Assembly (NCBI GenBank): GCA_964500205.1
Contig: CAZCNS010000012.1
Span: 5,626 to 69,625, forward strand
Direction of reading: 5' to 3'
Source: an uncultured Chryseobacterium sp.
GTDB taxonomy: Bacteria > Bacteroidota > Bacteroidia > UBA10329
Length of the DNA: 64,000 bases
The notes beneath the pieces are model-generated. The model was not told where the DNA came from. It searched no databases and saw only the letters and a program-made list of their open reading frames with translations. The position numbers and the translations under genes were made by a program. Position 1 is the first letter of the stretch, and every line of letters starts with the position of its first letter. Positions 9,722 to 62,560 of this stretch are shown here, in pieces.

Positions 9722-10221
9722 AAGTTCTTCTGACACCAGTTCTATTCTCAACTGTGCTTTTCTGCATGGCTCAGACGAGCGAGTCTGATTTGGATGATTC
9801 GGAATCAGGATGGACAAGACCGTTGGAAAATGTGGACATGTCTGAGGGAAAATGTTGGGGAATCACGCTGACAGAAATTTACAACATCGGTGGGGCACAT
9901 CCCCGTGAGAAAAGGAAGTTAGGAGGGAATCGGCATTTGGAAAGGCTTGATAAGAAGTGGGTGATCGGGAGGCTTCAAGAATTGGCACATCTTAAGGATG
10001 AGTTCAGAGTACGAATGGATGAGCAGATTGACGGTTTTCATGAGTTCGTAATCACATTAAGGGGTAAGGACTGCAAGACCCAAGAGATCGTTTTTGATAG
10101 CAAGGCCAATTTTGATTTCGGTCAGCTTGAAAGTCACTTTAAGAGAACTGAGACAGTATACCACTACTCGAAAGGCAACTACCGAAAAACCGTAAATTGG
10201 GTTGTTAAAAAGCGCAATTGA
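9718..10221 (+). CDS. Hypothetical secreted protein (orphan)
   Basis: Its GTG start overlaps the yhcG-like stop (GTGA). Signal peptide MKVLLTPVLFSTVLFCMAQ. Visibly more AT-rich than its neighbours. Confidence 0.45.
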   Translation: MKVLLTPVLFSTVLFCMAQTSESDLDDSESGWTRPLENVDMSEGKCWGITLTEIYNIGGAHPREKRKLGGNRHLERLDKKWVIGRLQELAHLKDEFRVRMDEQIDGFHEFVITLRGKDCKTQEIVFDSKANFDFGQLESHFKRTETVYHYSKGNYRKTVNWVVKKRN

Positions 10222-33804: not shown

Positions 33805-35124
33805 TTAACCTCCGAAGTCATCAAACGAGACGTTTTCATTGGGAACACCCCAGTCATCACACATTTTGAGCACGGCCTGATTCATCATTGGAGGGCCACA
33901 GAAATAGAATTCGATGTCCTCCGGGCTGTCATGATGCTTGAGGTACTGTTCAATTACAGCATTGTGAACGAATCCCACGAAACCATCTGGTTCTGTGTCA
34001 TGAATGTCTTTTTTTACCGTCCAGTTGTCCTCAGGCTTGGCATCGGAAAGCACCATGTAGAACTTGAAGTTCGGGAATTGGGCCTCAATCTCACGGAAGT
34101 AATGGATGTAAAACAGTTCTGCCCGCGAACGGCCGCCATACCAGTAGGTCACCTTGCGTCCAGTTTTGAGGGTCTTGAACAGGTGGTAGATGTGCGACCT
34201 CATGGGTGCCATACCTGCACCACCACCGATGTAAAGCATTTCCGCCTCGGTTTCTTTAATAAAGAATTCACCGTAGGGACCTGATATAACAGCCTTATCG
34301 CCAGGTTTAAGATTGAAGATGTAGGATGACGCAATACCAGGATTGATGTCAGCCCACTTATTGTTGGCACGGTCAAATGGCGGTGCGGCCACACGCACGT
34401 TGAGCATGATGTGACGTCCTTCTGCAGGGTAAGAGGCCATGGAGTAGGCACGTACCACTTCCTCATCGTTCTTCATCACCAGACCGCGCATTGCGAACGG
34501 ACCCTCACTCCAGTCCTTTTCAAACTTGTCAGGCTCGCCAGGGTGGTCTTTGGGGTGTGCCGAGATATCCATGTCTGAGAACTTCACCACGCACTTCGGG
34601 ATCTTGATCTGGATGTATCCTCCGGCTTCATAGTGCATCTCCTCTGGGATCTCCACAACGAACTCTTTGATGTAAGTGGCCACGTTGTAGTTGGAGACCA
34701 CCACCGCTTCCCATTCTTTGATACCGAAGATCTCTTCCGGAATGCCGATCTTCATATCCTGCTTGACCTTCACCTGACAACCTAATCTCCAGTTGTCCTT
34801 GATCTCCTTCCTACTGAAGTACGGGACTTCCGTTGGGAGAATCTCACCACCTCCTTCGAATACCTGACACTTACACATGGCGCAGGTTCCGCCACCGCCA
34901 CAAGCGGATGGAAGAAAGATCTTGTTGTTGCCAAGGGTGGAGAGAATGGTGCCTCCTGACTCCACCTCTATTTCATCCTGCCCATTGATAACGAGCTTTA
35001 CAGGGCCAGATGGAGATAGCTTGGATTTCGCGAAGAGCAAGATGGCCACCAACAGCAGTACCATCACAAGGAAGGCGATGACGCTGAAGATGATGATGGT
35101 AGGATTGACGCTTAGTAGTACCAT
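33805..35124 (-). CDS. nqrF: Na+-translocating NADH:quinone reductase subunit F
   Basis: N-terminal TM helix, 2Fe-2S motif SACGGGGTCAMCKC, FAD motif RAYSMASYP, NAD domain GGGAGMAP. Confidence 0.95.
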   Translation of the reverse strand: MVLLSVNPTIIIFSVIAFLVMVLLLVAILLFAKSKLSPSGPVKLVINGQDEIEVESGGTILSTLGNNKIFLPSACGGGGTCAMCKCQVFEGGGEILPTEVPYFSRKEIKDNWRLGCQVKVKQDMKIGIPEEIFGIKEWEAVVVSNYNVATYIKEFVVEIPEEMHYEAGGYIQIKIPKCVVKFSDMDISAHPKDHPGEPDKFEKDWSEGPFAMRGLVMKNDEEVVRAYSMASYPAEGRHIMLNVRVAAPPFDRANNKWADINPGIASSYIFNLKPGDKAVISGPYGEFFIKETEAEMLYIGGGAGMAPMRSHIYHLFKTLKTGRKVTYWYGGRSRAELFYIHYFREIEAQFPNFKFYMVLSDAKPEDNWTVKKDIHDTEPDGFVGFVHNAVIEQYLKHHDSPEDIEFYFCGPPMMNQAVLKMCDDWGVPNENVSFDDFGG

Positions 35125-35179
35125 TGCTTTGGATTGAATGATGTCAGTTGTAGCGGACGCCTTTGAGTCTTGCTCTCTT

Positions 35180-35794
35180 TCAGAGCTCGATGCCCATGAA
35201 GCTCATGAAACCGATGCCCATCAGCCCGGTGATGATGAACGTGATACCAAGACCTCTCAAGGGCGCGGGAACGGATGAATAACGGATTTTCTCACGGATT
35301 GCTGCGATGGCGACAATGGCGAGAAACCAACCCACACCGCTACCCAGTCCGAACACAGTAGCTTCGGCAATGTTCGCGTACTGCCTCTCCTGCATGAACA
35401 GCGACCCACCGAGGATGGCGCAGTTTACAGCGATCAGTGGCAGGAAGATGCCCAACGAAGCGTAGAGTGCAGGGGCGAATTTCTCAACGGTCATCTCCAC
35501 GAGTTGAACCATTGATGCAATAATGGCGATGAACATGATGAAGCTCAGGAAGCTCAGGTCAAGGCTGGCATATTGTGGGCTTACCCATGATAGCGCCCCT
35601 TCCTTCAGTACATAGTTCTCAAGAAGGTAGTTCACGGGCACAGTGAATCCGAGTACAAAGATCACCGCGAGACCAAGGCCAACACCGGTCTTCACCGTCT
35701 TGGAGACCGCTAGGTAAGAGCACATGCCGAGGAAATAGGCAAAAATCATGTTCTCGATGAAGATGCCCTTGACAAAAATGTTTACATATTCCAT
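35180..35794 (-). CDS. nqrE: Na+-NQR subunit E
   Basis: ATG 35794 ([31 protein letters not shown]). The 31-codon extension in the ORF track is rejected. Confidence 0.95.
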
Positions 35795-35841
35795 GGTAAG
35801 ACTTTGTTTCTCAGGAGATGAACAGTGATTATAAATGCAGA

Positions 35842-36546
35842 TCAGTTGGCTTCTACAAGCGAAGTGTTCCGTGACCGCTGAACCCAAATGATGACCCCGA
35901 CAACGATGAGTGCCATCGGTGGCAGGATCATCAGTCCGTTATCCACGTATCCGAGTGCGTAGAGTCCGGTTGACTCCGCGAGGATATCTCCGTTTGCTGT
36001 CAACGCACCGGCCTTCTGACCGAGCACGGGGAAGCCCCATAGCGTTCCAGAACCGAGCAGCTCGCGGAAGAAGGACACGATAATGAGGATAAGACCGTAG
36101 GATAAGCCATTGCCTACACCGTCAAGGAAAGCTGGCCAAGGTTTGTTTCCAAGAGCGAAAGCCTCCAATCGGCCCATGATGATGCAATTGGTGATGATAA
36201 GTCCAACGAAGACCGACAAGGCCTTGCTCACATCATAGACGTACGCCTTCAGCACCTGGTCTACCAGAATAACTAGTGACGCCACAATTACCAGCTGCAC
36301 GATGATACGGATACGGTTAGGCACCAGATTACGGATGAGTGACACAAGGACGTTGCCTGCTGCCAATACGAATAGCACTGACAGGGTCATCACTACAGCC
36401 TGTTTCAGCTGCACGGTGATGGCAAGGGCAGAGCAGATGCCGAGTACCTGCACGGTGATCGGGTTGCTGTCGTCAAGCGGATTGGTGATGAGTTCCTTGT
36501 TCTTCTTGGAGAACAATGGTTCAGATGCTGTTGCTGTTGCGCTCAT
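35842..36546 (-). CDS. nqrD: Na+-NQR subunit D
   Basis: [17 protein letters not shown] and [12 protein letters not shown] are conserved NqrD/RnfE motifs. Confidence 0.95.
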
Positions 36547-36605
36547 TTCCTTATTGTGATAAAATGAAACCGGGGTTAGTCCTGTTCAGGCTGAAGTGGG
36601 GGAGG

Positions 36606-37490
36606 TCAAACGTTTTCCTCTTCAATGATCTGTTCGCTTTCCTCCTCGACCTGATTCTCCATGTCTTCCTCGTACTCTTCTTTCTCAACATCAAAGGGCA
36701 TGGTGCTGCTCATTGAAGCAAAGAAAGGAGCGTAGATCTGCAGCGTGCGCTGAAGCATTTCGGTCACCCCGTTGCTTGTGATGGTGCCGCCACTTATGGC
36801 ATCAACCCCATGCACACTACCTTGAGCACCGCCTTTCATGACCGTTATACCCTTGAATTCACCATTGCTGTCCATCAGTTGCTTGCCAATGAACGGACGT
36901 TGAAATGACGCCTGATTTATTTCCGCTCCAAGACCCGGAGTCTCGGTCTTATGGTCGAAGCTTGCACCAAGCACGGTGCTTCCATCTTCACCCACAGCCA
37001 CATATCCCCAGATAGGCCCCCACAGTCCGGTTCCTACCATGGGAATCACGAATGCGATATCGCCTTTTGCAGTTTCCATCTTATAGAGTGGAAAGGACGC
37101 ACCCATTTCAGTCAGTTCAGCTCGCATCTCATCCCAGTTCCAGCTTGCCATCCCTGTACGATTTCGGGAATAAGCCTTAGACAGACCGCCACGGTAGTCT
37201 TTTTGAACATCCACCGAGAAGGCACCGTCATTGTCCTCAGAGACTACCTCGCCCTTGCCGTTGAGCACATAACCCTTCTTCAGCTTTGCATCGTAGGTGG
37301 TTTGGGCGTCATCGGCTGTAACGCTGAAGCCGACAGACGTAAGGATGTTCTGCTTCTTCTCGATGGCGACATTTGCCTTCTGCCTGTCCTTCAGACTTTC
37401 CGAAGCGAAAGCGAGAATACTCGCCACAACAATCACCATTACGGCAGCAAAGCCGAATGTGTATTTGTTACTGTTTACGTCAATAGCCAT
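36606..37490 (-). CDS. nqrC: Na+-NQR subunit C with an acidic C-terminal extension
   Basis: N-terminal TM helix. Covalent-FMN site VDAISGGTITS. About 35 extra E/D-rich C-terminal residues. Confidence 0.9.
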   Translation of the reverse strand: MAIDVNSNKYTFGFAAVMVIVVASILAFASESLKDRQKANVAIEKKQNILTSVGFSVTADDAQTTYDAKLKKGYVLNGKGEVVSEDNDGAFSVDVQKDYRGGLSKAYSRNRTGMASWNWDEMRAELTEMGASFPLYKMETAKGDIAFVIPMVGTGLWGPIWGYVAVGEDGSTVLGASFDHKTETPGLGAEINQASFQRPFIGKQLMDSNGEFKGITVMKGGAQGSVHGVDAISGGTITSNGVTEMLQRTLQIYAPFFASMSSTMPFDVEKEEYEEDMENQVEEESEQIIEEENV

Positions 37491-37558
37491 CTTGATGATG
37501 ATGAATTACAGATGAGTGAGTTGAGTCTGTGCGATGGTTCAGCTTGATGCGTCCGTTT

Positions 37559-38743
37559 TCAGGCAGCTACAGCTGTGCGTTTCAGTCTACGATTGATGTT
37601 TGCCTCTACCACGTAGTGGTCTATCAGCGGAGCCATGATGTTCATGAACAGAATGGCGAGCATGATGCCTTCAGGGTAGGCAGGGTTGAAAACACGGATT
37701 ATTATGGCAAGCAGTCCGATAAGGAATCCATAGATGTACTTGCCCGTGTTGGTCTGCGCGGCTGTAACGGGGTCTGTGGCCATGAATACTACCCCGAAGG
37801 CAAATCCGCCAACAATGAGGTGTTGCCACCAAGGGAATGCCATCAAAGCACCTCCGATGCCTGCATCAGAGAGGCTGTTGAAAATCAGACCCATGACCGC
37901 ACCGCCCACGACCGCACTCAACATCACACGCCAGCTTCCAATTCCGGTCCAAAGAAGAATGAATGCACCGATGAGGATCGCAAATGTGCTGGTCTCACCT
38001 ATTGATCCGGGAATGAATCCGAGGAACATGTCCTGTGCCGTGTAGGCCAGTTCGGCAGAGCCGCTCTTAACAGCGGACAGGTCTCCGAGGATGGTCGCAC
38101 CGCTGATGGCATCGTTACTGATACCGCCATGCACCCATATCTTATCACCGCTCATGTAGGTAGGATAAGCGAAGAACAGGAATGCACGCGCGGTTAAGGC
38201 CACGTTGACGATGTTCATGCCTGTTCCACCGAAGACCTCCTTGCCGAAAACAACAGCAAATGCAGTAGCCACGGCCACCATCCATAGTGGTATGTCGACA
38301 GGGAGAACAAGCGGTATGAGCATTCCGGTGACCAGGAAACCCTCTTCCACCGAGTGTCCTTTCTTCATGGCAAAGCCGAACTCGATGCCAAGGCCCACGG
38401 CATAGCTCACCACCACGATAGGCAGAACATTCCATGCACCGATGGCAAGCATGTCCATCAAGGTGGCAGTGTCCAGCTCGCCCAGTGCACGGAAATGCTG
38501 ATATCCAGCATTGTACAGCCCAAAGAGCAGGCAAGGGATCATTGCCATGATGACGGTGCTCATGGTCCGCTTCAGGTCGATGCCATCTTTGATATGTGTT
38601 CCCTTAGATGTTACCTCTTTAGGCGTGAACATGAGGGTCTCAAAGGCATCGATGGCCACAAGGAAACTACCGTACTTCTCGTACTTGCCTCCTTTTTCAA
38701 ACGGCTCCTTCACTGAATGGAAGAAATTCTCAAGAAATTTCAT
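37559..38743 (-). CDS. nqrB: Na+-NQR subunit B
   Basis: Polytopic. Covalent-FMN site DAISGATILG. Conserved YPEGIMLAILFMN. Confidence 0.95.
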   Translation of the reverse strand: MKFLENFFHSVKEPFEKGGKYEKYGSFLVAIDAFETLMFTPKEVTSKGTHIKDGIDLKRTMSTVIMAMIPCLLFGLYNAGYQHFRALGELDTATLMDMLAIGAWNVLPIVVVSYAVGLGIEFGFAMKKGHSVEEGFLVTGMLIPLVLPVDIPLWMVAVATAFAVVFGKEVFGGTGMNIVNVALTARAFLFFAYPTYMSGDKIWVHGGISNDAISGATILGDLSAVKSGSAELAYTAQDMFLGFIPGSIGETSTFAILIGAFILLWTGIGSWRVMLSAVVGGAVMGLIFNSLSDAGIGGALMAFPWWQHLIVGGFAFGVVFMATDPVTAAQTNTGKYIYGFLIGLLAIIIRVFNPAYPEGIMLAILFMNIMAPLIDHYVVEANINRRLKRTAVAA

Positions 38744-38844
38744 AATCTATGCTTCTATTAAGGCGTGAGACGAGGGAAGTGCTTCTCTCAACCTCTGACT
38801 GGTGCCGGTGACCTTAAACTTTCAACTTTGAACGTAAACCTTTA

Positions 38845-40206
38845 CTATCCGCACTCTTTCTCGATGAGCGTCAGACCGTCACGGATGATCTGCTGCACCG
38901 GGCTCTTCGATGTGCATACGTACTCGCAAAGCGCGAAGTCTTCTTCAACAACCTCATAGATGCCGAGGTTCTCCATGAGCTCAATGTCACCGATAAGAAT
39001 GGCCTTCACCAAATGCTGAGGAAGGATGTCCATCGGCACCACGTTCTCGTATTCGCCCGTGGTTACATAGGCTCTTCGCTCCCCGTTAGTGTTGGTGTCC
39101 AGCGCGTACTTCTTGCTCGGCATGAGCCAAGAGAAATAGCTGCGATTGGCCGAATGCTTGTTCAAGCCGGCACTTGCCCAACCCTCTGTGACGAAGAACT
39201 TAGGATGGTCGCCCTCCGGTATCACGGTGACGCTGTTGTGGTAGAAACCCAGATACCCCCCCTCGCCTGCATTCGACCCGGTGAGGACATCTCCACTGAT
39301 GAAGCGCAGGTTGCCACCCTTCACATTGCCTTTGGTGATGGAAGATATGGTTGCGCCTTGCACCGTTTTGAAGTACTTGGCTGCCGCCACTTCAGAGCCA
39401 GCGAGGGCCACGATGCGGCTCGCATCATATTTACCAGATGTGAATGAACGTCCAATCAGGGCGACATCATCAGCGTTCACAGTCCAAACCACCTCGCCCT
39501 TGCTTACTGGACTGATGTGATGGATCTGTACGCCAACGTTGCCAGCAGGGTGGGGGCCTTTGAATTTGTGAATCTGAACCCCTTTGGCATTTTTCAGCAC
39601 CTCTGAGGTGGTGTGGTCACTGTGCAGGCTCAGGTGAACTTTGCCAGTAGTCAGTTTGCCGAGAATGGTCAGGCCGGCCTGAAAGTCCTTCTCCCGACCA
39701 TGCAGCACATAATCGAGGTCGGCTGCCAAGGGAGCACTGTTGAAACCGGAAATGAAGATGGCCTTCGGCTTGTCATCAGGGCGAGCAGGGGTGCCATACG
39801 GCCTTCTCGTAACGAACGCGAGCAGGCACTGGTCCAACATTCGCTTCAGAACCTGTTCACTGCTCATTGAAGCAGGGTTGGCAGGGGCGAACTCCGCATG
39901 ACGCGTCTCCTTGTCCGCAAGTATCTTGACACCCAGAATCTTCCGTTTATCACCACGGAGAATCTCTATCACTTCTCCACTTACGGGAGACGCCACTTTC
40001 AGGTCGGGATAATCCTTGCTGAAGAAGAGCGGGGCCCCTGCGAGCACTTCATCTCCCTGCTTCACAAGCATCTTCGGGGTGAGATTTTTAAAGTCGGAGG
40101 GTGCTATTTGAAAGGTCTCCGAGCGTGCCGCTGTGGCGGTCACTTTCTCGGCCTCGCCCAACAAGGGAATGTCGAGGCCACGCTTGATACTGATGTCGTT
40201 TGACAT
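38845..40206 (-). CDS. nqrA: Na+-NQR subunit A
   Basis: ATG 40206 (MSNDISIKRGLDIPLLGEAEK, the typical NqrA start). The 28-codon extension in the ORF track is rejected. Confidence 0.9.
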   Translation of the reverse strand: MSNDISIKRGLDIPLLGEAEKVTATAARSETFQIAPSDFKNLTPKMLVKQGDEVLAGAPLFFSKDYPDLKVASPVSGEVIEILRGDKRKILGVKILADKETRHAEFAPANPASMSSEQVLKRMLDQCLLAFVTRRPYGTPARPDDKPKAIFISGFNSAPLAADLDYVLHGREKDFQAGLTILGKLTTGKVHLSLHSDHTTSEVLKNAKGVQIHKFKGPHPAGNVGVQIHHISPVSKGEVVWTVNADDVALIGRSFTSGKYDASRIVALAGSEVAAAKYFKTVQGATISSITKGNVKGGNLRFISGDVLTGSNAGEGGYLGFYHNSVTVIPEGDHPKFFVTEGWASAGLNKHSANRSYFSWLMPSKKYALDTNTNGERRAYVTTGEYENVVPMDILPQHLVKAILIGDIELMENLGIYEVVEEDFALCEYVCTSKSPVQQIIRDGLTLIEKECG

Positions 40207-40243: not shown

Positions 40244-40251
40244 CAAAAATA
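40244..40251 (-). promoter_or_regulatory. Candidate Bacteroidota sigma-A -7 box for the nqr operon
   Basis: The minus strand reads TATTTTTG, an exact TAnnTTTG consensus, about 37 nt upstream of the nqrA ATG. It is a single motif match only. Confidence 0.25.
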
Positions 40252-40375
40252 GCAGAAAGCCAATGCCCCGTTGGGATCGTGGCTGACCAATCTAATTTAG
40301 AACTAATCTAAATAGAGGCGAGTGTTTGGCGGACTACAAGTATTTGTGCATCAGGGTATTGATGTTGTTTTTTGA

Positions 40376-40470
40376 TTACCTGCTCAGATACAGGTTCCGC
40401 TCCGAGTACATCTCTGGAAGAACTCGTCCTGAAAATCGTCTATGAAGCGGATGGCATCTCTGTCTTGAAA
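40376..40470 (-). pseudogene. Displaced, frameshifted copy of the carB 3' end
   Basis: ACCTGCTCAGATACAGGTTCC is identical to 40920-40940. It encodes AIRFIDDFQDEFFQ against EAIRFIDDLQDEFFQ in carB. A 1-nt deletion relative to carB shifts the frame before the end. Confidence 0.75.
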
Positions 40471-40479
40471 CCGGATATC

Positions 40480-40815
40480 GGGATTACATGTCGCGATAAT
40501 GGGACTTAAAATCCCGAAGACGGGACTTAGAGTCCCGATATTGGGACTTCCTGTCCCGGAAATAGGACTCTGTATCCCATTAACGGGACTATATATCCCG
40601 ATGATGGGACTTAAAATCCCGAAAACGGGCCTTTGAGTCCCGTTAATGGGACTTAGAGTCCCGAAGATGGGACTTAGAGTCCCGATATTGGGACTTCCTG
40701 TCCCGAAAATAGGACTCCGTATCCCATTAACGGGACTACATATCCCGATTATGGGACTTAAAATCCCGAAAACGGGCCTTCGTGTCCCGTTAATGGGACT
40801 TAGAATCCCGAAATC
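40480..40815. repeat. Tandem array of 16 x 21-bp dyad-symmetric units (GGGACT-N3-AGTCCC plus a 6-nt spacer) with a 147-bp higher-order repeat
   Basis: Unit starts: 40480 (degenerate), 40501, 40522, 40543, 40565, 40585, 40606, 40627, 40648, 40669, 40690, 40712, 40732, 40753, 40774, 40795. Block 40522-40668 nearly equals block 40669-40815. Confidence 0.9.
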
Positions 40816-40917
40816 CATGCATTGAACTGGTGGCACGGTCAAGTGTTCCGAGGGATTCTTGCAAAGCATTGGCCCCAAACGGATGACCTATAAGGAAGAC
40901 GCACCCAACACTCCCAA

Positions 40918-43734
40918 TCACCTGCTCAGATACAGGTTCCTCTCCGAGTACACCTCTTGGAAGAACTCGTCCTGGAGGTCGTCTATGAAGCGGATGGCCT
41001 CGCCTGTGGATTTCATCTCGGGGCCGAGTTCCTTGCTCAACTCTGGGAATTTTTCGTAGCTGAACACGGGTATCTTGATGGCATAGCCCTTCTTCGTTGG
41101 GTTGAAGTTGAAGTCCTTCACCTTCTTCTCGCGCATCATCACCTTGACGGCATAGTTCACATACGGCTCATCATACGCCTTAGCGATGAAAGGAACGGTG
41201 CGCGATGCACGCGGGTTGGCCTCGATGATATAGACCACCTCGTCCTTGACCGCGAACTGGATGTTGATGAGGCCCACGGTCTTGAGCGCAACCGCGATGG
41301 TCTTGGTGTGCTCCTCTATCTGGCGCATCACGTTGTCGCTGAGGTCGAAGGGTGGGAGCACCGCGTAGGAGTCGCCCGAGTGGATGCCCGCAGGTTCGAT
41401 GTGCTCCATGATGCCGATGATGTAAACGTCCTCGCCATCGCAAATGGAGTCGGACTCGGCCTCAATGGCGTTCTCCAGGAAATGGTCGAGCAGGATGCGG
41501 TTGCCAGGCAGGTCTTTCAGCAGGTTGACCACATGCTCCTCCAGCTCGCGCTCGTTGATCACGATCTTCATGCTCTGCCCGCCAAGCACGTAGCTGGGGC
41601 GCACCAGAAGAGGGAACCCGAGCTCTTTGCTCAGTTTCACGGCAGTGTCTGCATCTTCGGCCACCCCGAATTTAGGGTAGGGGATGCCATGCTCCTGCAG
41701 CAGCTTGGAGAATCGGCCACGGTCTTCTGCGAGGTCGAGGCTCTCGAAGTCGGTGCCGATGATCTTGATGCCGTAGCGTTCCAGCTTCTCGGCCAGTTTG
41801 AGGGCGGTCTGTCCTCCCAGTTGGACGATGACGCCCTCTGGCTTCTCGTGCAGGATGATGTCGTAGATGTGTTCCCAGAACACCGGCTCAAAATAGAGCT
41901 TGTCGGCAGTGTCGAAGTCGGTGCTTACCGTCTCGGGGTTGCAGTTGATCATGATGGTCTCGTAGCCGCACTCCTTCGCGGCCAGCACGCCATGCACGCA
42001 ACTGTAGTCGAACTCGATGCCCTGCCCGATGCGGTTCGGGCCGCTGCCGAGCACCACGATCTTCTTCTTTTCGGAACGGACGCTCTCGTTCTCATCCTCA
42101 AATGTGGAGTAGTAATAAGGTGTCTGAGCGGGGAACTCTGCCGCACAGGTGTCCACCAGCTTATAGACCCGTTGGATGCCCATCTCCTGCCTGCGGTTGA
42201 ACACCTGGCTCTCCAAGCAGTTGAGCAGATGCGCCACCTGGCGGTCGGCATAGCCCTTCTGTTTGGCCTCGTAAAGCAGCTCGCGGGGCAGGGTCTCCAG
42301 TTTGAACTTAGAGATCTCATCTTCCAGCGCGATCAGTTCCTGAATCTGTTCGAGGAACCATTTGTCGATGCGGGTGATGCTCTGGATGGTCTTGAGCGGG
42401 ATGCCCATCTTGAAGGCATCATAGATGTGGAAGATACGGTTCCAGCTGGCATTGCCGAGGCTGTGGAGGATCTGCTGCTGGTCGCGGAGCTCCTTGCCAT
42501 CGGCACCAAGGCCGTTGCGTTTTATCTCCAACGACTGACAAGCCTTCTGCAACGCCTCCTGAAACGTGCGCCCGATGCCCATCACCTCGCCCACGCTCTT
42601 CATCTGCAGGCCCAATCTGCGGTCAGCACCCTTGAACTTGTCGAAGTTCCAGCGCGGTATCTTGACGATAACGTAGTCCAATGTAGGCTCGAAGAAGGCC
42701 GAGGTGGTCTTGGTGATCTGGTTCTCCAGCTCGTCCAGATGGTAGCCGATGGCCAGCTTCGATGCGATCTTGGCGATGGGATAGCCCGTGGCTTTCGATG
42801 CCAGCGCGGACGAGCGGCTTACACGGGGGTTGATCTCGATGGCGATGATGTCCTCCTTCTCATCATCACTTACAGCGAACTGCACGTTGCAGCCGCCCGC
42901 GAAGTTCCCGATGGAGCGCATCATCTTGATGGCCATGTCTCTCATCCGCTGGTAGGTCTTGTCGCTCAGCGTCATGGCCGGGGCCACGGTGATGCTGTCG
43001 CCCGTGTGAATGCCCATCGGGTCGAAATTCTCGATGGAGCAGATGATGACCACATTGTCGTTGGCATCGCGCAGCAGTTCCAGTTCGAACTCCTTCCAGC
43101 CCAGCACGGCTTTATCGATCATCACCTCGTGGATGGGGGAGAGCTGTAGGCCGCGGTTCAGCAGCTTGTCGAACTCCGTAGGATCGTGCACTATGCTGGC
43201 ACCCGCACCACCCAGCGTGTATGATGCTCGGATGCAAAGCGGGAAACCGAACTCCTGCGCCACCTCCTTGCCTTCGAGGAAAGACTTGGCGGTCGTCTGA
43301 GGAGCCATCGCCACGCCTATCTTTAACATCAGCTTGCGGAACTTCTCGCGGTCCTCGGTGATTTCGATGGCCTCTACATCCACTCCGATCATCCGCACTC
43401 CGTATTTCGCCCAGATACCAAGGTCTTTGCACTTGATGGCGAGGTTGAGGGCCGTCTGTCCACCCATGGTCGGAAGCACGCAGTCGATCTTGTGTTTCTC
43501 CAGTATCTTGACGATGCTCTTGGGTTCCAGCGGCAACAGATAGATGTTGTCGGCCGTGACCTTATCGGTCATGATGGTTGCGGGGTTGGGGTTGATGATG
43601 GTGACCTCGATACCTTCCTCGCGCAACGACCTTGCTGCCTGCGAACCTGAATAATCGAACTCGCAGGCCTGACCGATTACGATGGGGCCGCTGCCGATGA
43701 TGAGCACGGACTTGATAGATGGGTCTTTGGGCAT
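40918..43734 (-). CDS. carB: Carbamoyl-phosphate synthase large subunit
   Basis: ATG 43734 (MPKDPSIKSVLIIGSGPIVIGQACEFDYSG). Duplicated ATP-grasp halves, the second starting KKIVVLGSGPNRIGQGIEFDY. The 86-codon extension in the ORF track is rejected. Confidence 0.95.
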   Translation of the reverse strand: MPKDPSIKSVLIIGSGPIVIGQACEFDYSGSQAARSLREEGIEVTIINPNPATIMTDKVTADNIYLLPLEPKSIVKILEKHKIDCVLPTMGGQTALNLAIKCKDLGIWAKYGVRMIGVDVEAIEITEDREKFRKLMLKIGVAMAPQTTAKSFLEGKEVAQEFGFPLCIRASYTLGGAGASIVHDPTEFDKLLNRGLQLSPIHEVMIDKAVLGWKEFELELLRDANDNVVIICSIENFDPMGIHTGDSITVAPAMTLSDKTYQRMRDMAIKMMRSIGNFAGGCNVQFAVSDDEKEDIIAIEINPRVSRSSALASKATGYPIAKIASKLAIGYHLDELENQITKTTSAFFEPTLDYVIVKIPRWNFDKFKGADRRLGLQMKSVGEVMGIGRTFQEALQKACQSLEIKRNGLGADGKELRDQQQILHSLGNASWNRIFHIYDAFKMGIPLKTIQSITRIDKWFLEQIQELIALEDEISKFKLETLPRELLYEAKQKGYADRQVAHLLNCLESQVFNRRQEMGIQRVYKLVDTCAAEFPAQTPYYYSTFEDENESVRSEKKKIVVLGSGPNRIGQGIEFDYSCVHGVLAAKECGYETIMINCNPETVSTDFDTADKLYFEPVFWEHIYDIILHEKPEGVIVQLGGQTALKLAEKLERYGIKIIGTDFESLDLAEDRGRFSKLLQEHGIPYPKFGVAEDADTAVKLSKELGFPLLVRPSYVLGGQSMKIVINERELEEHVVNLLKDLPGNRILLDHFLENAIEAESDSICDGEDVYIIGIMEHIEPAGIHSGDSYAVLPPFDLSDNVMRQIEEHTKTIAVALKTVGLINIQFAVKDEVVYIIEANPRASRTVPFIAKAYDEPYVNYAVKVMMREKKVKDFNFNPTKKGYAIKIPVFSYEKFPELSKELGPEMKSTGEAIRFIDDLQDEFFQEVYSERNLYLSR

Positions 43735-43980
43735 GCTTATTTCTGTTTGATTGCTGTGAATGAATCTGTTACAGGAAAAGGATTGAGGCGACTCAAACCG
43801 CGCCAAGGTAGGTGGTGACCGACAAGTAGTGCCATTTGTCAACTCATACTTTGCTAACAGTTCATTCACAATTATCTGCACATGCAGCCGAAACCGTCTA
43901 CCTCGATGTTCTTTCATGTCATTGCATCTTTGTCGAGGCGGAGAGCTGAGGATTCGTGTCCCTTCGTTTCTCGTGTTTCC

Positions 43981-44442
43981 ATGATGTCTCACCCTTCCCT
44001 AAACCTGCCAATAGATGCGTTCCGAGTAGAACTGCGTGACGGATGCGAGCAGGTGTTTTGCCAGGTTCGCAGAAAGTGGGTCGTTCTCACGCCCGAGGAG
44101 TGGGTGCGTCAGCATGTGGTCGCCTACCTGCATCGATCGCTTGGGTATCCGCTCTCACTGATGCGCCTGGAGAAACGGGTGGACGGAGGTAAGCGCCTTC
44201 AACGTTCGGACGTCACGGCCCATGCAAGTGATGGCCGTCCGCTGCTGCTCGTGGAATGCAAGGCCCCTGATGAACCCATCGACCGGGAGACCTTGTTCCA
44301 AGCATCGCGCTACAACAGGCACATCGGTGCAGGACACATCCTGCTCAGCAATGGAATGGTGCATCAATGCTGTCGAATTGACGGGGGCGAGGTCAACTTT
44401 CTGGATGCTATTCCGTTTTACACAGACCTGATCAACATTTGA
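43981..44442 (+). CDS. Stand-alone HsdR_N-like (type I restriction enzyme R N-terminal, PD-(D/E)xK-like) domain protein
   Basis: ATG 43981. Pattern LTPEEWVRQHVVAYL...YP...EK...R.D......PLLLVECKAP is typical of the HsdR_N family common in Bacteroidota. Confidence 0.65.
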   Translation: MMSHPSLNLPIDAFRVELRDGCEQVFCQVRRKWVVLTPEEWVRQHVVAYLHRSLGYPLSLMRLEKRVDGGKRLQRSDVTAHASDGRPLLLVECKAPDEPIDRETLFQASRYNRHIGAGHILLSNGMVHQCCRIDGGEVNFLDAIPFYTDLINI

Positions 44443-44472
44443 AGTAATTTCATAGCCCCGAAACTGAAAGTC

Positions 44473-46068
44473 ATGAAAGCACTGTCCGCCTGCCTGCTGT
44501 TGCTCCCTTTTCTCACCATGGCTCAGGATGCCGCTGTTCCGGGCATCCTCATCGCCAAGGTCAATGAGTCCTCGAAGTCAGAAATTCTTGCTGAAAGTGC
44601 CGACTGGGGTGCATTCAAAGGTTTGGAGGTATTGTCGGTGAGGCAGATGTTCCCCAATGCAGAGGATCCGAAGGGACGAACGGACCGATTCGGGAATCCA
44701 TTCGTTGATCTTAGCCGCACTTTCCGGTTGCATCTGTCAGAGAATACCGATCTGAACGAGGCCATCCGATTGCTGATGAGCACGGGTCTGTTTGAATGGG
44801 TTGAGCACACCACCCGCTCCGAGACCTTCAGCACCCCCAACGACCCCAATCTCCCATCTCAGAACCACCTGACCCAGATCGATGTGTTTAATGCGTGGAC
44901 TGTCACCACGGGCGATACCAACACTGTCATCGGGGTAACGGACACCAGCTTTGACATCTTTCACCAGGATCTTCAAGGAAATCTTAAGTACAACTACGAT
45001 GATCCCGTCAACGGGGCGGATGATGATGGTGACGGTTTTGTGGACAACTACGCGGGGTGGGATATTGCCGATAACAACAACACACTTTTTGTGGCCAACA
45101 ACTTCCATGGCACTGGCGTACTGGCCGTGTCATCTGCCACCACGGACAATGGTGTTGGCATCGCAGGCGTAGGTTATCATTGCAAGTACTTGCCAGTGAA
45201 GATCGGCAACAGTGCAGGCAGCATCCTTACTGCCGATGGCTATGAGTCGATCACCTACTGTGCTGATCGCGACTGCAAGGTAATCAATTGTTCTTGGGGC
45301 ACCACCACTTTTAGCCAGTTGGGGCAGGATGTGGTCGATTATGCCACCATCAACAAGGACGCTCTGGTGGTGGCCGCGGCTGGTAACCTTGCTGTGGAGG
45401 AGTATCGCTATCCGGCCTCTTTTCACCGTGCGCTCAGTGTCACAGGTGTTCACAACAATGATGTGTTCGACAACGGCTCCAACCCCACCTTCACTTGGGC
45501 AGACAGTGTGGACCTCTGCGCCCAGGGCTTCAATGTGTACAGCACAGCAACAGTAGGCGGCACGCAGGGTGCAGGTCCGGTTTATACCACTACCGGTGGC
45601 ACGAGCTATGCCGCACCTCAGGTGTCCGGTGCTGCCGCGCTCATCCGGTCTCATTTCAGCTGTCTCACTGCCATAGAGACGGCCGCTTTACTTCTTGATT
45701 ATGCCGTTGATATTGAGGGAGTAGGTACCAACTCCAACTACGCAGGCAAGATCGGAAAGCGGCTCGACATCGGGGCGGTGTTCAACATGCCGATGAATCC
45801 GTGCGAGATAACGGGCTTGGACGAGCAGTCTGCCCGCAATGGCCTGTTGCTCTTCCCCAACCCGTCCTCAGATGAGTTCACTGTTCGGACCAATGACTCT
45901 GGCAGATGGACACTGACGATTACAGATATGCAAGGGCGCGCAGTGATGCACAGCAGTTTCGTTGGCGACAGGGAAACCGTTAGCGGGCTGGCTCCCGGCC
46001 TTTACGCGGTGCAGGCCGAGAGTGCCACCAAGCGCTTTACTGCAAGGGTCATCGTGGTCGCGCAGTGA
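44473..46068 (+). CDS. S8 (subtilisin) serine peptidase with a T9SS C-terminal sorting domain
   Basis: Catalytic D (GVTDTSFD), H (HGTGVLAV) and S (GGTSYAAPQVSGAAAL). C-terminal LLLFPNPSSDEFTV...GLYAVQAES tail. Confidence 0.85.
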   Translation: MKALSACLLLLPFLTMAQDAAVPGILIAKVNESSKSEILAESADWGAFKGLEVLSVRQMFPNAEDPKGRTDRFGNPFVDLSRTFRLHLSENTDLNEAIRLLMSTGLFEWVEHTTRSETFSTPNDPNLPSQNHLTQIDVFNAWTVTTGDTNTVIGVTDTSFDIFHQDLQGNLKYNYDDPVNGADDDGDGFVDNYAGWDIADNNNTLFVANNFHGTGVLAVSSATTDNGVGIAGVGYHCKYLPVKIGNSAGSILTADGYESITYCADRDCKVINCSWGTTTFSQLGQDVVDYATINKDALVVAAAGNLAVEEYRYPASFHRALSVTGVHNNDVFDNGSNPTFTWADSVDLCAQGFNVYSTATVGGTQGAGPVYTTTGGTSYAAPQVSGAAALIRSHFSCLTAIETAALLLDYAVDIEGVGTNSNYAGKIGKRLDIGAVFNMPMNPCEITGLDEQSARNGLLLFPNPSSDEFTVRTNDSGRWTLTITDMQGRAVMHSSFVGDRETVSGLAPGLYAVQAESATKRFTARVIVVAQ

Positions 46069-60364: not shown

Positions 60365-61048
60365 CCGCCCGCGCGAGGCTGCGCCTCGTGCGTACTATTC
60401 GGAACCGTCCTCGGTTCCAAATCCCAATAGCCGTATTTTCACGCCATGTCCACACGCTACAAGACATGGCCAGGCCAGCTTTACTACACTACCACAACGG
60501 TGGTCGGTTGGATAGACGTTTTCACACGGCAACAGTATGTGGACATCCTTTATGACAGCATCCGCTATTGCCAGCAGCACAAAGAGTTGGAACTGTACGC
60601 CTATGTCATCATGCCCAATCACTTCCACCTCATCTGCCGCACACAGGAGAATGCGCTCAACTTTGTGATGCGCGACCTCAAGAGCTTCACGGCCCGCACC
60701 ATTGTCAAGACCGTGGACACCAACCTGCATGAAAGCCGCAGGGAATGGCTCATGCACATGTTCAGATACTATGGCCGTGGCAGTGCCAACAACAGGGACT
60801 ATCAGTTCTGGCAGCACGGCAATCATCCCATCGAACTGCGCAGCAATGCGGTTTTCTGGCAGAAACTGCGCTACCTGCACAATAACCCCGTGAAGGCAGG
60901 CATCGTTACCGAGCCGCATCATTACCTTCACAGCAGTGCCCACCCCGACCGGAGACTTGATGTACTTGACATTGTTTGAAATGATGAATAAAATGCTGAC
61001 GAGGACGTCAGCCAATAGAACGCACGAGGCGCAGCCTCGCGCGGGCGG
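60365..61048 (+). mobile_element. REP-flanked Y1/HUH transposase (RAYT-like) unit, copy 1
   Basis: Perfect 28-bp terminal inverted repeats: CCGCCCGCGCGAGGCTGCGCCTCGTGCG at 60365-60392 and its reverse complement at 61021-61048. Each is itself hairpin-forming. Inner hairpins GGAACCG-tcct-CGGTTCC (60401-60418) and GCTGACG-agga-CGTCAGC (60995-61012). Confidence 0.8.
60446..60979 (+). CDS. IS200/IS605-type Y1 (HUH) transposase, RAYT-like
   Basis: HUH motif in YVIMPNHFHLI. Catalytic Tyr context KLRYLHNNPVKAG. 177 aa. Confidence 0.9.
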   Translation: MSTRYKTWPGQLYYTTTTVVGWIDVFTRQQYVDILYDSIRYCQQHKELELYAYVIMPNHFHLICRTQENALNFVMRDLKSFTARTIVKTVDTNLHESRREWLMHMFRYYGRGSANNRDYQFWQHGNHPIELRSNAVFWQKLRYLHNNPVKAGIVTEPHHYLHSSAHPDRRLDVLDIV

Positions 61049-61106
61049 ATTCTTCAGTGTATCAAATTTATCAATGGAATCAGCCGCTGCATTAAAGTTA
61101 AGTGAA

Positions 61107-61574
61107 ATGAACACTTACAAATTGACTTCATGGTCAGTCGTAATTATACTGATTGCAATTTACAGTTGCAATCCGCCTGAAACCATGCGTATTAGCCATC
61201 AAAATGCAATTGGCACGTACGTGTGTAATGCGAGGCACGGAGTAGAAATCCTTGTGTTAGAACAGGACTCAACATATATTTATGAAATTAGAGATATTAA
61301 TGGCGAGTACTATATTTTCGATGGAAGGTGGTGCGGCCCAGTCAAATACACCAGATCGAATGTCCCCGGACTCGCCTTTGTATTTTATGAATGGCCGATA
61401 GACTACATGCTATATCAAAAATCATTTTCTGACTATGAAGAGAATCGTAGGAAAGGAAGAAAGATAGATTACCAAATCCAGATGGTTATCAAGCGAGTGG
61501 ATTCAGAGTGGACATATGTACTTGAAAGAAGCCCTGAATTTACAGGTACTGATTTTATAAAGCAACGACAATAA
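61107..61574 (+). CDS. AT-rich orphan lipoprotein
   Basis: MNTYKLTSWSVVIILIAIYSC lipobox. Composition is much more AT-rich than the backbone. No recognisable family. Confidence 0.45.
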   Translation: MNTYKLTSWSVVIILIAIYSCNPPETMRISHQNAIGTYVCNARHGVEILVLEQDSTYIYEIRDINGEYYIFDGRWCGPVKYTRSNVPGLAFVFYEWPIDYMLYQKSFSDYEENRRKGRKIDYQIQMVIKRVDSEWTYVLERSPEFTGTDFIKQRQ

Positions 61575-61780: not shown

Positions 61781-62485
61781 CCGCCCGCGCGAGGCTGCGC
61801 CTCGTGCGTACTATTCGGAACCGTCCTCGGTTCCAAATCCCAATAGCCGTATTTTCACGCCATGTCCACACGCTACAAGACATGGCCAGGCCAGCTTTAC
61901 TACACTACCACAACGGTGGTCGGTTGGATAGACGTTTTCACACGGCAACAGTATGTGGACATCCTTTATGACAGCATCCGCTATTGCCAGCAGCACAAAG
62001 AGTTGGAACTGTACGCCTATGTCATCATGCCCAATCACTTCCACCTCATCTGCCGCACACAGGAGAATGCGCTCAACTTTGTGATGCGCGACCTCAAGAG
62101 CTTCACGGCCCGCACCATTGTCAAGACCGTGGACACCAACCTGCATGAAAGCCGCAGGGAATGGCTCATGCACATGTTCAGATACTATGGCCGTGGCAGT
62201 GCCAACAACAGGGACTATCAGTTCTGGCAGCACGGCAATCATCCCATCGAACTGCGCAGCAATGCGGTTTTCTGGCAGAAACTGCGCTACCTGCACAATA
62301 ACCCCGTGAAGGCAGGCATCGTTACCGAGCCGCATCATTACCTTCACAGCAGTGCCCACCCCGACCGGAGACTTGATGTACTTGACATTGTTTGAAATGA
62401 TGAATAAAATGCTGACGAGGACGTCAGCCAATAGAACGCACTGCCTGCCCCGCAAAAGCGGGGAGGCGCAGCCTCGCGCGGGCGG
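61781..62485 (+). mobile_element. REP-flanked RAYT-like unit, copy 2; right REP interrupted by a 21-nt nested hairpin
   Basis: Left TIR at 61781-61808 is identical to copy 1. Right TIR is split: CGCAC (62437-62441), a 21-nt insert (62442-62462), then GAGGCGCAGCCTCGCGCGGGCGG (62463-62485). Confidence 0.8.
61862..62395 (+). CDS. IS200/IS605-type Y1 (HUH) transposase, RAYT-like, copy 2
   Basis: Translation is identical to 60446-60979. Confidence 0.9.
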   Translation: MSTRYKTWPGQLYYTTTTVVGWIDVFTRQQYVDILYDSIRYCQQHKELELYAYVIMPNHFHLICRTQENALNFVMRDLKSFTARTIVKTVDTNLHESRREWLMHMFRYYGRGSANNRDYQFWQHGNHPIELRSNAVFWQKLRYLHNNPVKAGIVTEPHHYLHSSAHPDRRLDVLDIV

Positions 62486-62560
62486 ACCGCTCATTCTTCC
62501 TATTGCACCCCCAGTTAGTACTCACGTGTTTATGCCCGTATTAATGATAAATAAAAAGTA

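What the first reader, a model, noticed from the sequence alone, without database searches (positions are those of the whole stretch)
40480..40815. Phased array of sixteen 21-bp dyad-symmetric units with a 147-bp higher-order repeat between carB and the nqr operon
Units start at 40480 (degenerate), 40501, 40522, 40543, 40565, 40585, 40606, 40627, 40648, 40669, 40690, 40712, 40732, 40753, 40774 and 40795. The best copies (40522, 40648, 40669) read GGGACTTAGAGTCCC plus a 6-nt spacer, which is a perfect 6-bp dyad around a 3-nt centre. The other units keep at least GGGA...TCCC. Seven-unit blocks 40522-40668 and 40669-40815 repeat each other with roughly ten substitutions. A 22-nt unit is always followed by a 20-nt unit, so the 21-bp phase (two helical turns, all dyads on one DNA face) is preserved. 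There are no spacers, so this is not CRISPR, and I do not recognise it as a known REP, BIME or iteron family. Phased dyad sites look like arrays for a dimeric DNA-binding protein (iterons, partition centromeres, nucleoid or silencer loading sites). If transcribed, the array would form 16 consecutive short hairpins in the carB 3' region and nqr leader, 270-610 nt upstream of nqrA. No cognate binding-protein gene is evident nearby.
Basis: seen in the sequence. Interest (0 to 1): 0.75.

Follow-up and report, generated by a model that had tools for sequence, protein, structure and literature searches.

The report
Orphan iteron-like repeat array beside carB
A real, strictly phased run of fifteen 21-bp binding-site-like repeats sits in a 0.5-kb insertion behind the carB gene of a Bacteroidota bacterium; it has the sequence grammar of phage replication-origin iterons but no replication gene next to it, so it is most likely a leftover of a mobile element.

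Summary
The array is real: 15 good units and one degenerate unit in exact 21-bp register (40480-40815), with two 147-bp blocks that differ at 10 positions. The 22/20-nt alternation is an anchoring artefact.

It is bounded by about 85-bp direct repeats of the carB 3' end (40375-40458, frameshifted; 40917-41001, functional). Relatives with 89-95% identical CarB have neither the array nor the duplicate. One other genome (L004) has the same duplicate-array junction.

GGGACT and TCCCG are almost invariant, the centre and spacer vary freely, and no compensatory changes keep a hairpin. GC/AT content alternates every 10.5 bp. This points to recognition of double-stranded DNA, not to RNA or a neutral minisatellite.

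In viral contigs, three phased GGGA-N7-TCCC units occur in 52 contigs. In 49 of them the array lies inside a replication-initiator gene, as in the lambda O origin.

The window has no initiator gene, no AT-rich unwinding tract, no integrase and no other copy of the motif.

Best reading (confidence about 0.45): an orphan, expanded iteron block left by an integrative element at an att-like site in carB. Present function is unproven. ORF 40384..40878 has no real homologues.

The parts
40480..40815 (.). Array of 16 units in exact 21-bp register (15 good units from 40501, and a degenerate first unit at 40480). Unit consensus is (G/A)GGGACT-N5-TCCCG-N5. The higher-order structure is a partial block at 40480-40521 plus two 147-bp (7-unit) blocks at 40522-40668 and 40669-40815.
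   Evidence: TRF periods 21 and 147. Motif count against shuffles. Register, per-column conservation and the 10 block differences. PWM scores. 10.5-bp GC/AT periodicity with power 11.7, against a background maximum of 2.26.
40459..40479 (.). 21-bp junction (J) between the displaced carB tail and the first unit. It is conserved in the second genome, L004.
   Evidence: The L004 alignment covers 162 bp at 96.3% identity across tail, junction and the first units.
40375..40458 (-). O2: a displaced duplicate of the last ~26 codons and stop codon of carB. It reads DAIRFIDDFQDEFFQ and then a 1-nt deletion shifts the frame. Homology to the real tail ends at the stop codon.
   Evidence: Direct-repeat families D2 and D3, 91-93% identity, spacing 543/542. 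Translations. Tail alignment with relatives. The junction to the nqrA upstream DNA is confirmed by an independent Logan contig, L002, which is identical up to 40407.
40816..40916 (.). U: about 100 bp of unique sequence between the carB stop codon and the array. No similarity to the carB 3' flanks of relatives, or to plasmid or phage records.
   Evidence: Direct reading. BLAST against relatives. No match in plasmids or phages.
40917..41001 (-). O1: the functional 3' end of carB (...EAIRFIDDLQDEFFQEVYSERNLYLSR*) and partner of the direct repeat.
40918..43734 (-). carB (carbamoyl-phosphate synthase large subunit, 938 aa, ATG at 43734). The insertion sits at its 3' end.
   Evidence: Pfam CPSase_L domains. 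Start codon. Homologues are all 938 aa.
38845..40206 (-). nqrA, the first gene of nqrA-F, downstream of the insertion.
   Evidence: Pfam NQRA domains. An identical protein is on Logan contig L002.
40244..40251 (-). TATTTTTG, a match to the Bacteroidetes -7 promoter consensus TAnnTTTG, 38 nt upstream of the nqrA ATG. It lies downstream of the array and of O2.
   Evidence: Pattern search: 12 matches in the window, against 17.8 expected from shuffles, so the motif is not enriched. The consensus itself is taken from prior knowledge, and promoter use is inferred.

Best explanation
The array is a block of iteron-type binding sites. Each unit is a two-helical-turn dyad (YGGGACT...TCCCG) of the kind bound by dimeric winged-helix replication initiators at lambda-O-type origins. 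It was brought to this position by an integrative mobile element (prophage-, plasmid- or island-like) that recombined with the last ~85 bp of carB.

The insertion left one tail joined to carB (O1) and one displaced, now frameshifted tail (O2). All that remains between these att-like repeats is ~100 bp of unique DNA, a 7-unit iteron block and a 21-bp junction. The 7-unit block was later duplicated by unequal recombination into the present 2.2 x 147-bp structure.

Shown: the anatomy, the insertion status, site-specific conservation of the half-sites, and the match of the grammar to phage origin iterons.

Inferred: that a winged-helix initiator is the ligand, that the flanking repeats are att sites, and the direction of decay.

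The window has no initiator gene and no AT-rich unwinding tract. The array therefore probably cannot fire as an origin and is idle unless a related element supplies its initiator, which it would then bind.
For: 1. Real, strictly phased array.
2. Selective constraint on sequence, not on pairing. Columns 2, 3, 5, 6 and 12-15 are invariant in 15 units, while columns 7-11 and 17-21 are near-saturated. All 10 differences between the two 147-bp copies fall in variable columns. Taking the 13 columns that vary within copy 1 as the variable set, P is about (13/21)^10 = 0.008. C5/T6 have no compensating partners, and the A4-to-C change is uncompensated.
3. GC-rich half-sites alternate with AT-rich spacers every 10.5 bp, so all sites lie on one face of the helix.
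4. Insertion status. About 85-bp direct repeats of the carB tail bracket it. Relatives with 89-95% CarB identity (L037, L038/39, L040, L095-L100) have a single tail and no array. A second genome (L004) has the same O2-junction-array structure, at the position where the ancestral carB tail sits before DUF4834-YfhO.
5. Analogy. Three phased GGGA-N7-TCCC units occur in 52 viral contigs. By my own estimate from 24 specified bases, essentially no chance matches are expected. In 49 contigs the array lies inside an ORF whose N-terminal part matches an initiator N-terminal domain. Examples are Phage_rep_O followed by lambda P in L046, and L043 between SSB and DnaB.
6. The only viral hit to the strict two-unit GGGACT motif (L001) overlaps a 'replication initiation protein' gene. 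L094 carries GGGACAGAGAGTCCCGATGAC inside an ORF upstream of DnaB.
7. The junction TCCCGAAAACGGGAC is shared by the window array, L053 and the lambdoid arrays.
8. Literature. Lambda and Stx phage origins have 4-6 iterons, each a 19-bp imperfect inverted repeat, in the middle of gene O (PMC7466680). Decayed elements that keep attL and attR at the 3' end of a target gene are a recognised class, the CIMEs (PMC5704250).
Against: - No initiator, integrase or other mobile-element gene is in the 64-kb window or in 8 kb of L004.
- No AT-rich tract adjoins the array (direct reading).
- No phage, plasmid or viral contig carries these exact units or a carB-tail attP.
- Sixteen units is far more than the 3-7 of known origins.
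- The link to initiators rests on resemblance of a short motif, and about 45 of the 52 viral hits are one lambdoid family, so there are only 4-5 independent lineages.
- Arrays with GGGACT-N5-TCCC at 21-bp phase also occur in unrelated genomes with no link to replication genes, for example at gene ends in Kutzneria and in frame in housekeeping genes.
- L004 may be a close relative, so the two occurrences may reflect one ancestral event and not mobility.
Confidence: 0.45

Rival explanations
1. Plain palindromic minisatellite. A hairpin-forming 21-bp unit (for example an old terminator stem) was amplified by replication slippage and unequal crossing-over. It has no protein ligand and no function.
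For: The higher-order 147-bp duplication and the unit-level difference between the window and L004 are typical minisatellite dynamics. The array is absent from close relatives, and there is no other copy of the motif in 64 kb. Translated 21-bp repeats with similar heptads are common in public data.
Against: A neutral array should mutate evenly. Here 8 columns are invariant in 15 units while 10 are near-saturated, and the recent block differences avoid the conserved columns. Hairpin pairing is not preserved. This model does not explain the 85-bp duplication of the carB tail.
Confidence: 0.2
2. Host-encoded protein array. The units are phased operator or loading sites for a chromosomal regulator, nucleoid protein or partition protein that acts on carB or the nqr operon.
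For: Same conservation and phasing evidence as the main explanation. The position is upstream of the respiratory nqr operon.
Against: The array is missing in relatives that have the same genes. In L004 the same module lies next to different genes: ParE toxin, DUF4834 and YfhO. No isolated site occurs anywhere else in the window. The likely nqrA promoter is separated from the array by the displaced tail. No par genes or candidate regulator are adjacent.
Confidence: 0.1
3. RNA-level element. Read-through from carB makes a long, very stable hairpin that terminates or stabilises the carB mRNA, or is processed.
For: On the carB strand the RNA folds to -182 kcal/mol, z = -12.7. No canonical intrinsic terminator follows carB.
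Against: The stability follows automatically from quasi-palindromic repeats pairing with each other. No covariation supports any stem. No Rfam family reaches its threshold; the only hits are sub-threshold miRNA-like hairpins. Relatives manage without it.
Confidence: 0.08
4. Active miniature element or decoy. The att-flanked 0.5-kb unit is kept because its iterons are used. It either replicates and moves as a gene-less satellite with a helper element's initiator and integrase, or it titrates an invading element's initiator.
For: Ectopic lambda origin copies block lambda replication (PMC4488673, PMC3349717). The half-sites remain conserved after the block duplication. The same module occurs in two genomes next to different genes. 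The att-like repeats are retained.
Against: No helper, initiator or integrase has been identified anywhere. A single chromosomal copy titrates weakly compared with multicopy plasmids. O2 carries a frameshift and several substitutions, as a decaying site would. The neighbours are not a defence island.
Confidence: 0.1
5. Protein-coding heptad repeat. Either ORF 40384..40878 on the minus strand (heptad G-T/I-x-S-P-I/V-x) or a plus-strand reading (I/V-P-x-x-G-L-x) is translated.
For: The minus frame is open across the whole array and is in frame with the displaced tail. The plus frame mimics the iteron-encoded heptads of phage initiators: phmmer E = 5e-7 in a 949-sequence database. It also has the highest synonymous fraction, 0.44 against 0.27.
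Against: Searches of 5.8 billion proteins found only one hit, which is a chance match on an AT-rich, eukaryote-like contig, and none for the plus frame. The minus-strand ORF starts with TTG in unique DNA and ends in a frameshifted pseudo-tail. The plus frame has a TGA stop at unit 40627 and no flanking domains. The codon-phase signal is not significant, P about 0.12. Representative-library hits are translated minisatellites.
Confidence: 0.04

Closest known systems
Origin iterons of lambda-type phages (O-like initiator, 'O-some')
   Same: Several imperfect inverted-repeat units of about 19 bp are repeated head to tail at about two helical turns. GGGA/TCCC half-sites are separated by A/T-rich segments, and TCCCGAAAACGGGA-type junctions are shared. 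Unit number varies between relatives (4 in lambda, 6 in Stx phages; PMC7466680). Read in the initiator's frame, the units give (I/F/V)P-x-x-G heptads.
   Different: In phages the array lies inside the initiator gene, next to an AT-rich unwinding tract and a helicase or loader gene. Here it has no initiator, no AT-rich tract and no replication genes. It has 15-16 units with a 147-bp higher-order repeat, and it sits between chromosomal housekeeping genes.
Cis-mobilizable elements (CIMEs) and decayed integrative islands at gene 3' ends
   Same: The insert is bounded by direct repeats that contain the 3' end of the target gene. The gene stays intact, the displaced copy decays, and there are no recombination or transfer genes inside. 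Empty sites exist in relatives (definition in PMC5704250).
   Different: It is only about 0.46 kb long with no gene at all. No cognate integrase or intact element using a carB att site was found. The repeats are about 85 bp at about 92% identity, and their role as att sites is inferred.
Plasmid iterons and incompatibility/copy-control arrays (for example P1 incA, F incB/C, R6K, RK2; recalled from prior knowledge)
   Same: Phased repeats of about 20-22 bp bind one initiator each. Arrays detached from the origin can titrate or 'handcuff' the initiator.
   Different: Plasmid iterons are usually direct repeats without strong dyad symmetry and lie next to rep. No rep gene is present here, and there is no match in 72,556 plasmids.
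Centromere-like parC/parS repeat arrays (ParR/ParG/omega type; recalled from prior knowledge)
   Same: Contiguous short repeats, phased with the helix, are coated cooperatively by small dimeric proteins.
   Different: Such arrays lie directly upstream of a par operon. No par genes are present in the window.
REP/BIME elements and bacterial minisatellites (VNTRs)
   Same: Short palindromic units in tandem in an intergenic region after a gene, with copy number that is variable between relatives.
   Different: No other copy was found in 64 kb. All units have one orientation at a fixed 21-bp phase. Conservation is column-specific, and a long duplication of the target gene end flanks the array.

Membership tests
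Lambda-type (O-like initiator) replication origin | Three or more imperfect inverted-repeat iterons at about two-helical-turn spacing | tested here: met
   15 units plus 1 degenerate unit at exactly 21 bp. The dyad is GGGA(CT)-N-(AG)TCCC.
Lambda-type (O-like initiator) replication origin | Half-site grammar shared with arrays that lie inside verified initiator genes | tested here: met
   Phased GGGA-N7-TCCC units occur in 52 viral contigs, 49 of them inside initiator-like ORFs. TCCCGAAAACGGGAC junctions are shared. This is a resemblance of a short motif, not homology.
Lambda-type (O-like initiator) replication origin | The array lies within or next to the cognate initiator gene, with a helicase or loader gene nearby | tested here: not met
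   Pfam and PHROG scans of the neighbours show carB, nqrA-F, a HSDR_N_2 protein and a subtilase. phmmer with 8 phage initiators against the six-frame window hits only the repeat itself.
Lambda-type (O-like initiator) replication origin | Adjacent AT-rich DNA-unwinding tract | tested here: not met
   Both flanks (40459-40479 and 40816-40917) have ordinary composition. The lowest GC nearby is 0.44, beyond the displaced tail (direct reading).
Lambda-type (O-like initiator) replication origin | Specific binding by the initiator and origin firing | not testable with these tools
   Needs EMSA or footprinting and a replication assay.
CIME / decayed integrative element at a gene 3' end | Insert bounded by direct repeats that include the 3' end of the target gene, with the gene kept intact | tested here: met
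   40375-40458 against 40917-41001, 91-93% identity. Homology ends at the stop codon. carB is intact at 938 aa.
CIME / decayed integrative element at a gene 3' end | Empty target sites in related genomes | tested here: met
   L037, L038/39, L040 and L095-L100 have one tail and no array. Caveat: short-read contigs that span carB are biased towards genomes without an array.
CIME / decayed integrative element at a gene 3' end | An intact element or integrase that uses the same att site exists | tested here: inconclusive
   No viral contig carries the carB-tail sequence. There is no plasmid or phage match to the insert.
REP/BIME | Many dispersed intergenic copies in the same genome | tested here: inconclusive
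   No unit-like site lies outside the array in 64 kb (PWM at 12 bits or more: 0 hits, against 2.1 expected). The rest of the genome is not available.
CRISPR array | Repeats of 23-50 bp separated by unique spacers of similar length | tested here: not met
   The conserved parts are 6 and 5 bp long and are separated by 5-bp variable segments. The units repeat as a 7-unit block.
Partition centromere (parC/parS repeat type) | Repeat array directly adjacent to a par operon | tested here: not met
   No ParA/ParM/ParR-like genes in the window.
Structured RNA or intrinsic terminator | Covariation-supported stems, or a GC stem followed by a U tract | tested here: not met
   No compensatory changes. No terminator-like sites. 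No Rfam family reaches its gathering score.
Protein-coding heptad repeat | Homologous proteins with the repeat exist and the reading frame is intact | tested here: not met
   One chance hit for ORF 40384..40878 and none for the plus frame. There is a stop or frameshift in each frame. Representative-library hits are translated minisatellites.

The most novel reading that the evidence does not exclude
The 0.5-kb unit bounded by att-like repeats is a functional gene-less element. It would be an orphan iteron array kept in the chromosome either as a decoy that soaks up the replication initiator of an invading phage or plasmid (origin-titration immunity), or as a minimal satellite made only of an origin and att sites that is excised and replicated by a helper element.
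Probability: 0.1. Interest if true: 0.8.

Novelty: new variant of a known kind. Interest (0 to 1): 0.4.

Why it matters
If the reading is right, this is a chromosomal, gene-less block of origin-type binding sites, expanded to 15 units and parked at an att-like site in an essential gene. It would mark carB as an integration site in this uncultured Bacteroidota clade. It would also give the iteron sequence of a phage or plasmid not yet seen in public collections, which can then be searched for.

Laboratory experiments show that ectopic origin copies block phage lambda. A natural chromosomal decoy has not, to my knowledge, been documented, and this array offers a concrete candidate to test. If it is only a relic, it is still a clean example of selection-shaped repeats surviving after their element has gone. 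It is also a practical warning, because such arrays break short-read assemblies at this locus (L002 and L004 both end there).

Tried and rejected
- Coding reading of ORF 40384..40878. The protein search gave one hit, P0001, which lies on an AT-rich, eukaryote-like contig and is a chance heptad match.
- Plus-frame heptads as a query. There were no hits in the word-indexed database. The exhaustive search gave 422 hits, but the top ones are translated 21-bp minisatellites, so it was uninformative.
- Codon-phase test. The plus frame is best but not significant, P about 0.12. The first version of the script timed out.
- BLAST of the insert against plasmids and phages found no match.
- Viral scan for the carB tail as an attP found nothing. 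The viral scan for near-exact units returned one chance coding hit, L036.
- The metagenome scan for the best unit returned only phage operator-like sites in a 60% GC lineage and one chance hit. The window itself is not in that collection.
- The genome scan with the two-unit motif returned, besides L004, 21-bp arrays in unrelated phyla. None has flanking duplications, and their contexts are heterogeneous. I did not treat them as the same family.
- Rfam, tRNA and terminator scans found nothing relevant.
- The defence-system scan of the neighbours gave only generic domain matches.
- The exact window CarB is not on record, so no further DNA of the source genome could be fetched.

Full report
**Observation.** The region 40480-40815 is a genuine tandem array. 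Tandem Repeats Finder reports a 21-bp period (15.1 copies) and a 147-bp period (2.2 copies, 93% matches). The dyad GGGACTNNNAGTCCC with up to 2 mismatches occurs 13 times inside the array. The whole 64-kb window holds 17 such matches, against 2.4 expected, and none of 100 shuffles reached 17.

Printed in register, the units are exactly 21 bp apart. The blocks 40522-40668 and 40669-40815 differ at exactly 10 positions. The unit at 40480 is degenerate.

The neighbours are carB (40918-43734, minus strand, 938 aa) and nqrA-F (33805-40206, minus strand). A T9SS-tailed subtilase marks the organism as Bacteroidota.

The array is bracketed by a direct repeat of about 85 bp: 40375-40458 and 40917-41001, at 91-93% identity with one 1-nt indel. 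The right copy is the true 3' end of carB (...EAIRFIDDLQDEFFQEVYSERNLYLSR*). The left copy reads DAIRFIDDFQDEFFQ and then shifts frame. Homology between the two copies ends at the stop codon.

In carB orientation the order is: carB, tail O1, ~100 bp of unique DNA, the array, a 21-bp junction, the displaced tail O2, then the nqrA upstream region.

**Comparison with relatives.**
- Contigs encoding CarB proteins 89-95% identical to the window's have one tail and no array (L037, L038/39, L040, L095-L100).
- Most of them keep the order abhydrolase | carB - DUF4834 - YfhO, with only 12-13 bp after the carB stop codon.
- One genome in the GTDB species set, L004, shares 162 bp with the window at 96% identity: O2, the junction and the first units. 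Its contig then ends inside the array. Its O2 has no frameshift and sits where the ancestral tail should be, before a ParE toxin-antitoxin pair, DUF4834 and YfhO.
- An independent Logan contig, L002, confirms the O2-nqrA junction of the window.

The array with its duplicated tail is therefore a lineage-restricted insertion at the carB 3' end. This is the signature of site-specific integration into a gene end. A decayed element that keeps only attL and attR is known as a CIME (PMC5704250).

I could not decide whether the window and L004 inherited one event or were colonised separately. L004's tail is 95% identical to that of L037, so L004 belongs to the same subclade.

**Nature of the units.**
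- Columns 2, 3, 5, 6 and 12-15 never vary in 15 units. Columns 1, 4 and 16 vary in two units each. Columns 7-11 and 17-21 are close to saturation.
- All 10 differences between the two recent 147-bp copies fall in variable columns.
- The mirror partners of C5 and T6 vary without compensation, and the A4-to-C change is uncompensated. A hairpin is therefore not what is conserved.
- GC-rich half-sites alternate with AT-rich segments every 10.5 bp (power 11.7, against a background maximum of 2.26). All sites therefore lie on one face of the helix.
- No unit-like site exists elsewhere in the window.

This pattern argues for sequence-specific recognition of double-stranded DNA. It argues against a neutral minisatellite and against an RNA structure. 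The large folding energy (z = -12.7) is the trivial result of palindromic repeats pairing with each other. Rfam and terminator scans are empty.

**Coding.** ORF 40384..40878 is open through the array, but its only database hit is a chance match on a eukaryote-like contig.

On the plus strand one frame reads (I/V)P-x-x-GL-x heptads with a single TGA stop. This frame resembles the iteron-encoded heptads of phage initiators and has the highest synonymous fraction, but the signal is not significant (P about 0.12).

Neither frame is flanked by protein domains. Exhaustive searches return only translated minisatellites. I regard present-day coding as unlikely. A past life inside an initiator gene is possible but unproven.

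**What such arrays are elsewhere.**
- A scan of IMG/VR for three phased GGGA-N7-TCCC units found 52 contigs. With 24 specified bases I estimate that essentially no chance matches are expected.
- In 49 of them the array lies inside an ORF whose N-terminal part matches an initiator N-terminal domain.
- The large lambdoid group has Phage_rep_O followed by lambda P.
- L043/L053 carry GGGACACGATATCCCGAAAAC x5 inside a small ORF between SSB and DnaB.
- L055 carries its array in an HTH protein between DnaB-like and DnaC-like genes.
- The only viral hit to the strict two-unit GGGACT motif, L001, overlaps a 'replication initiation protein' gene.
- L094 has GGGACAGAGAGTCCCGATGAC inside an ORF upstream of DnaB.

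This is the lambda arrangement: 4-6 imperfect inverted-repeat iterons in the middle of gene O, next to an AT-rich tract (PMC7466680). The window's units share the phase, the half-sites and even the junction TCCCGAAAACGGGAC.

Caveats: most viral hits are one family. Arrays with GGGACT-N5-TCCC at 21-bp phase also occur in unrelated bacterial genomes in other contexts, and none of those has flanking duplications.

**Membership against mechanism.** The array works like an iteron block, but it is not an origin by definition. The window has no initiator or helicase-loader gene and no AT-rich unwinding tract. It also has far more units than known origins. No integrase, plasmid, phage or viral contig with these units or a carB-tail attP was found.

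The probable nqrA promoter motif, TAnnTTTG, lies at 40244-40251, downstream of O2. The array is therefore not in the nqr leader.

**Verdict.** The most likely reading (about 0.45) is an orphan iteron block left by an integrative element at an att-like site in carB. A 7-unit block was later duplicated to give the 147-bp repeat. The array is probably idle today.

The rivals are:
- a neutral palindromic minisatellite (about 0.2);
- a host regulator or nucleoid protein array (about 0.1);
- an RNA element (about 0.08);
- an active decoy or minimal satellite (about 0.1, the most novel reading; ectopic lambda origins do block lambda, PMC4488673 and PMC3349717);
- current coding (about 0.04).

It is best filed as a new variant of a known kind, and interest is moderate (0.4).

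Noticed in passing
window 60395-61114 (-) and 61811-62494 (-): Two paralogous ORFs without Pfam hits lie about 1.4 kb apart and share identical 15-mers (GGGACTATCAGTTCT at 60795 and 62211). This looks like a local gene duplication of unknown function.
   Followed up: no
window 40918-46068: carB in this genome has lost both ancestral neighbours. Relatives keep abhydrolase upstream and DUF4834-YfhO downstream. Here upstream are a 186-aa HSDR_N_2 protein (43882-44442) and a T9SS subtilase, and downstream is nqr. The locus has been rearranged on both sides.
   Followed up: partly
L037 about 9860-9905: The closest relative (95% CarB identity) has its own unrelated 22-bp tandem duplication (AAGTTTTAGCTCCGCTCCAAAA x2) just after the carB stop codon.
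   Followed up: no
L005, L006, L010, L011, L016, L026 (Kutzneria viridogrisea DSM 43850): At least six loci in one actinomycete genome carry 21-bp arrays of CGGGACTCGCGCTCCCCAGAG, some directly after stop codons. This is a dispersed tandem-repeat family that I did not characterise.
   Followed up: no
L003 5340-5430; L028 1340-1400; L015 6860-6925 and L023: Arrays of 21-bp GGGGACTnnnAGTCCCC units lie inside or at the ends of housekeeping genes. One is an in-frame GTSSPGT heptad insertion in a Kbl/BioF-like aminotransferase (Phycisphaeraceae). One spans the kdsA 3' end and kpsF 5' end (Spirochaetota). One lies in a long IspG-like ORF (Prosthecobacter).
   Followed up: partly
L031-L033, L035 (JGI metagenome contigs, GC about 0.6): A promoter-like TTGACA overlaps GGGACT-type dyads (AAGTCCCGATCTTGGGACTTAGAGTCCCG). 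It lies downstream of a small HTH gene and near a 335-aa ORF that I take, from its sequence alone, to be a tyrosine integrase. This looks like a phage operator that uses the same dyad.
   Followed up: no
L054 50-130 (viral contig, GC 0.26): Four units of GGGATTTAAACTCCCTTTTTC lie at a contig end next to a 447-aa ORF that I take, from its sequence alone, to be a portal protein. Not every phased GGGA-N7-TCCC array in phages is inside an initiator gene.
   Followed up: no
L002 (Logan SRR14492188) and L004 (MAG CAZATP010000050.1): Both independent short-read assemblies stop at this locus: L002 inside the displaced tail at window 40407, and L004 inside the array. Such arrays are probably under-represented in public assemblies.
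   Followed up: partly
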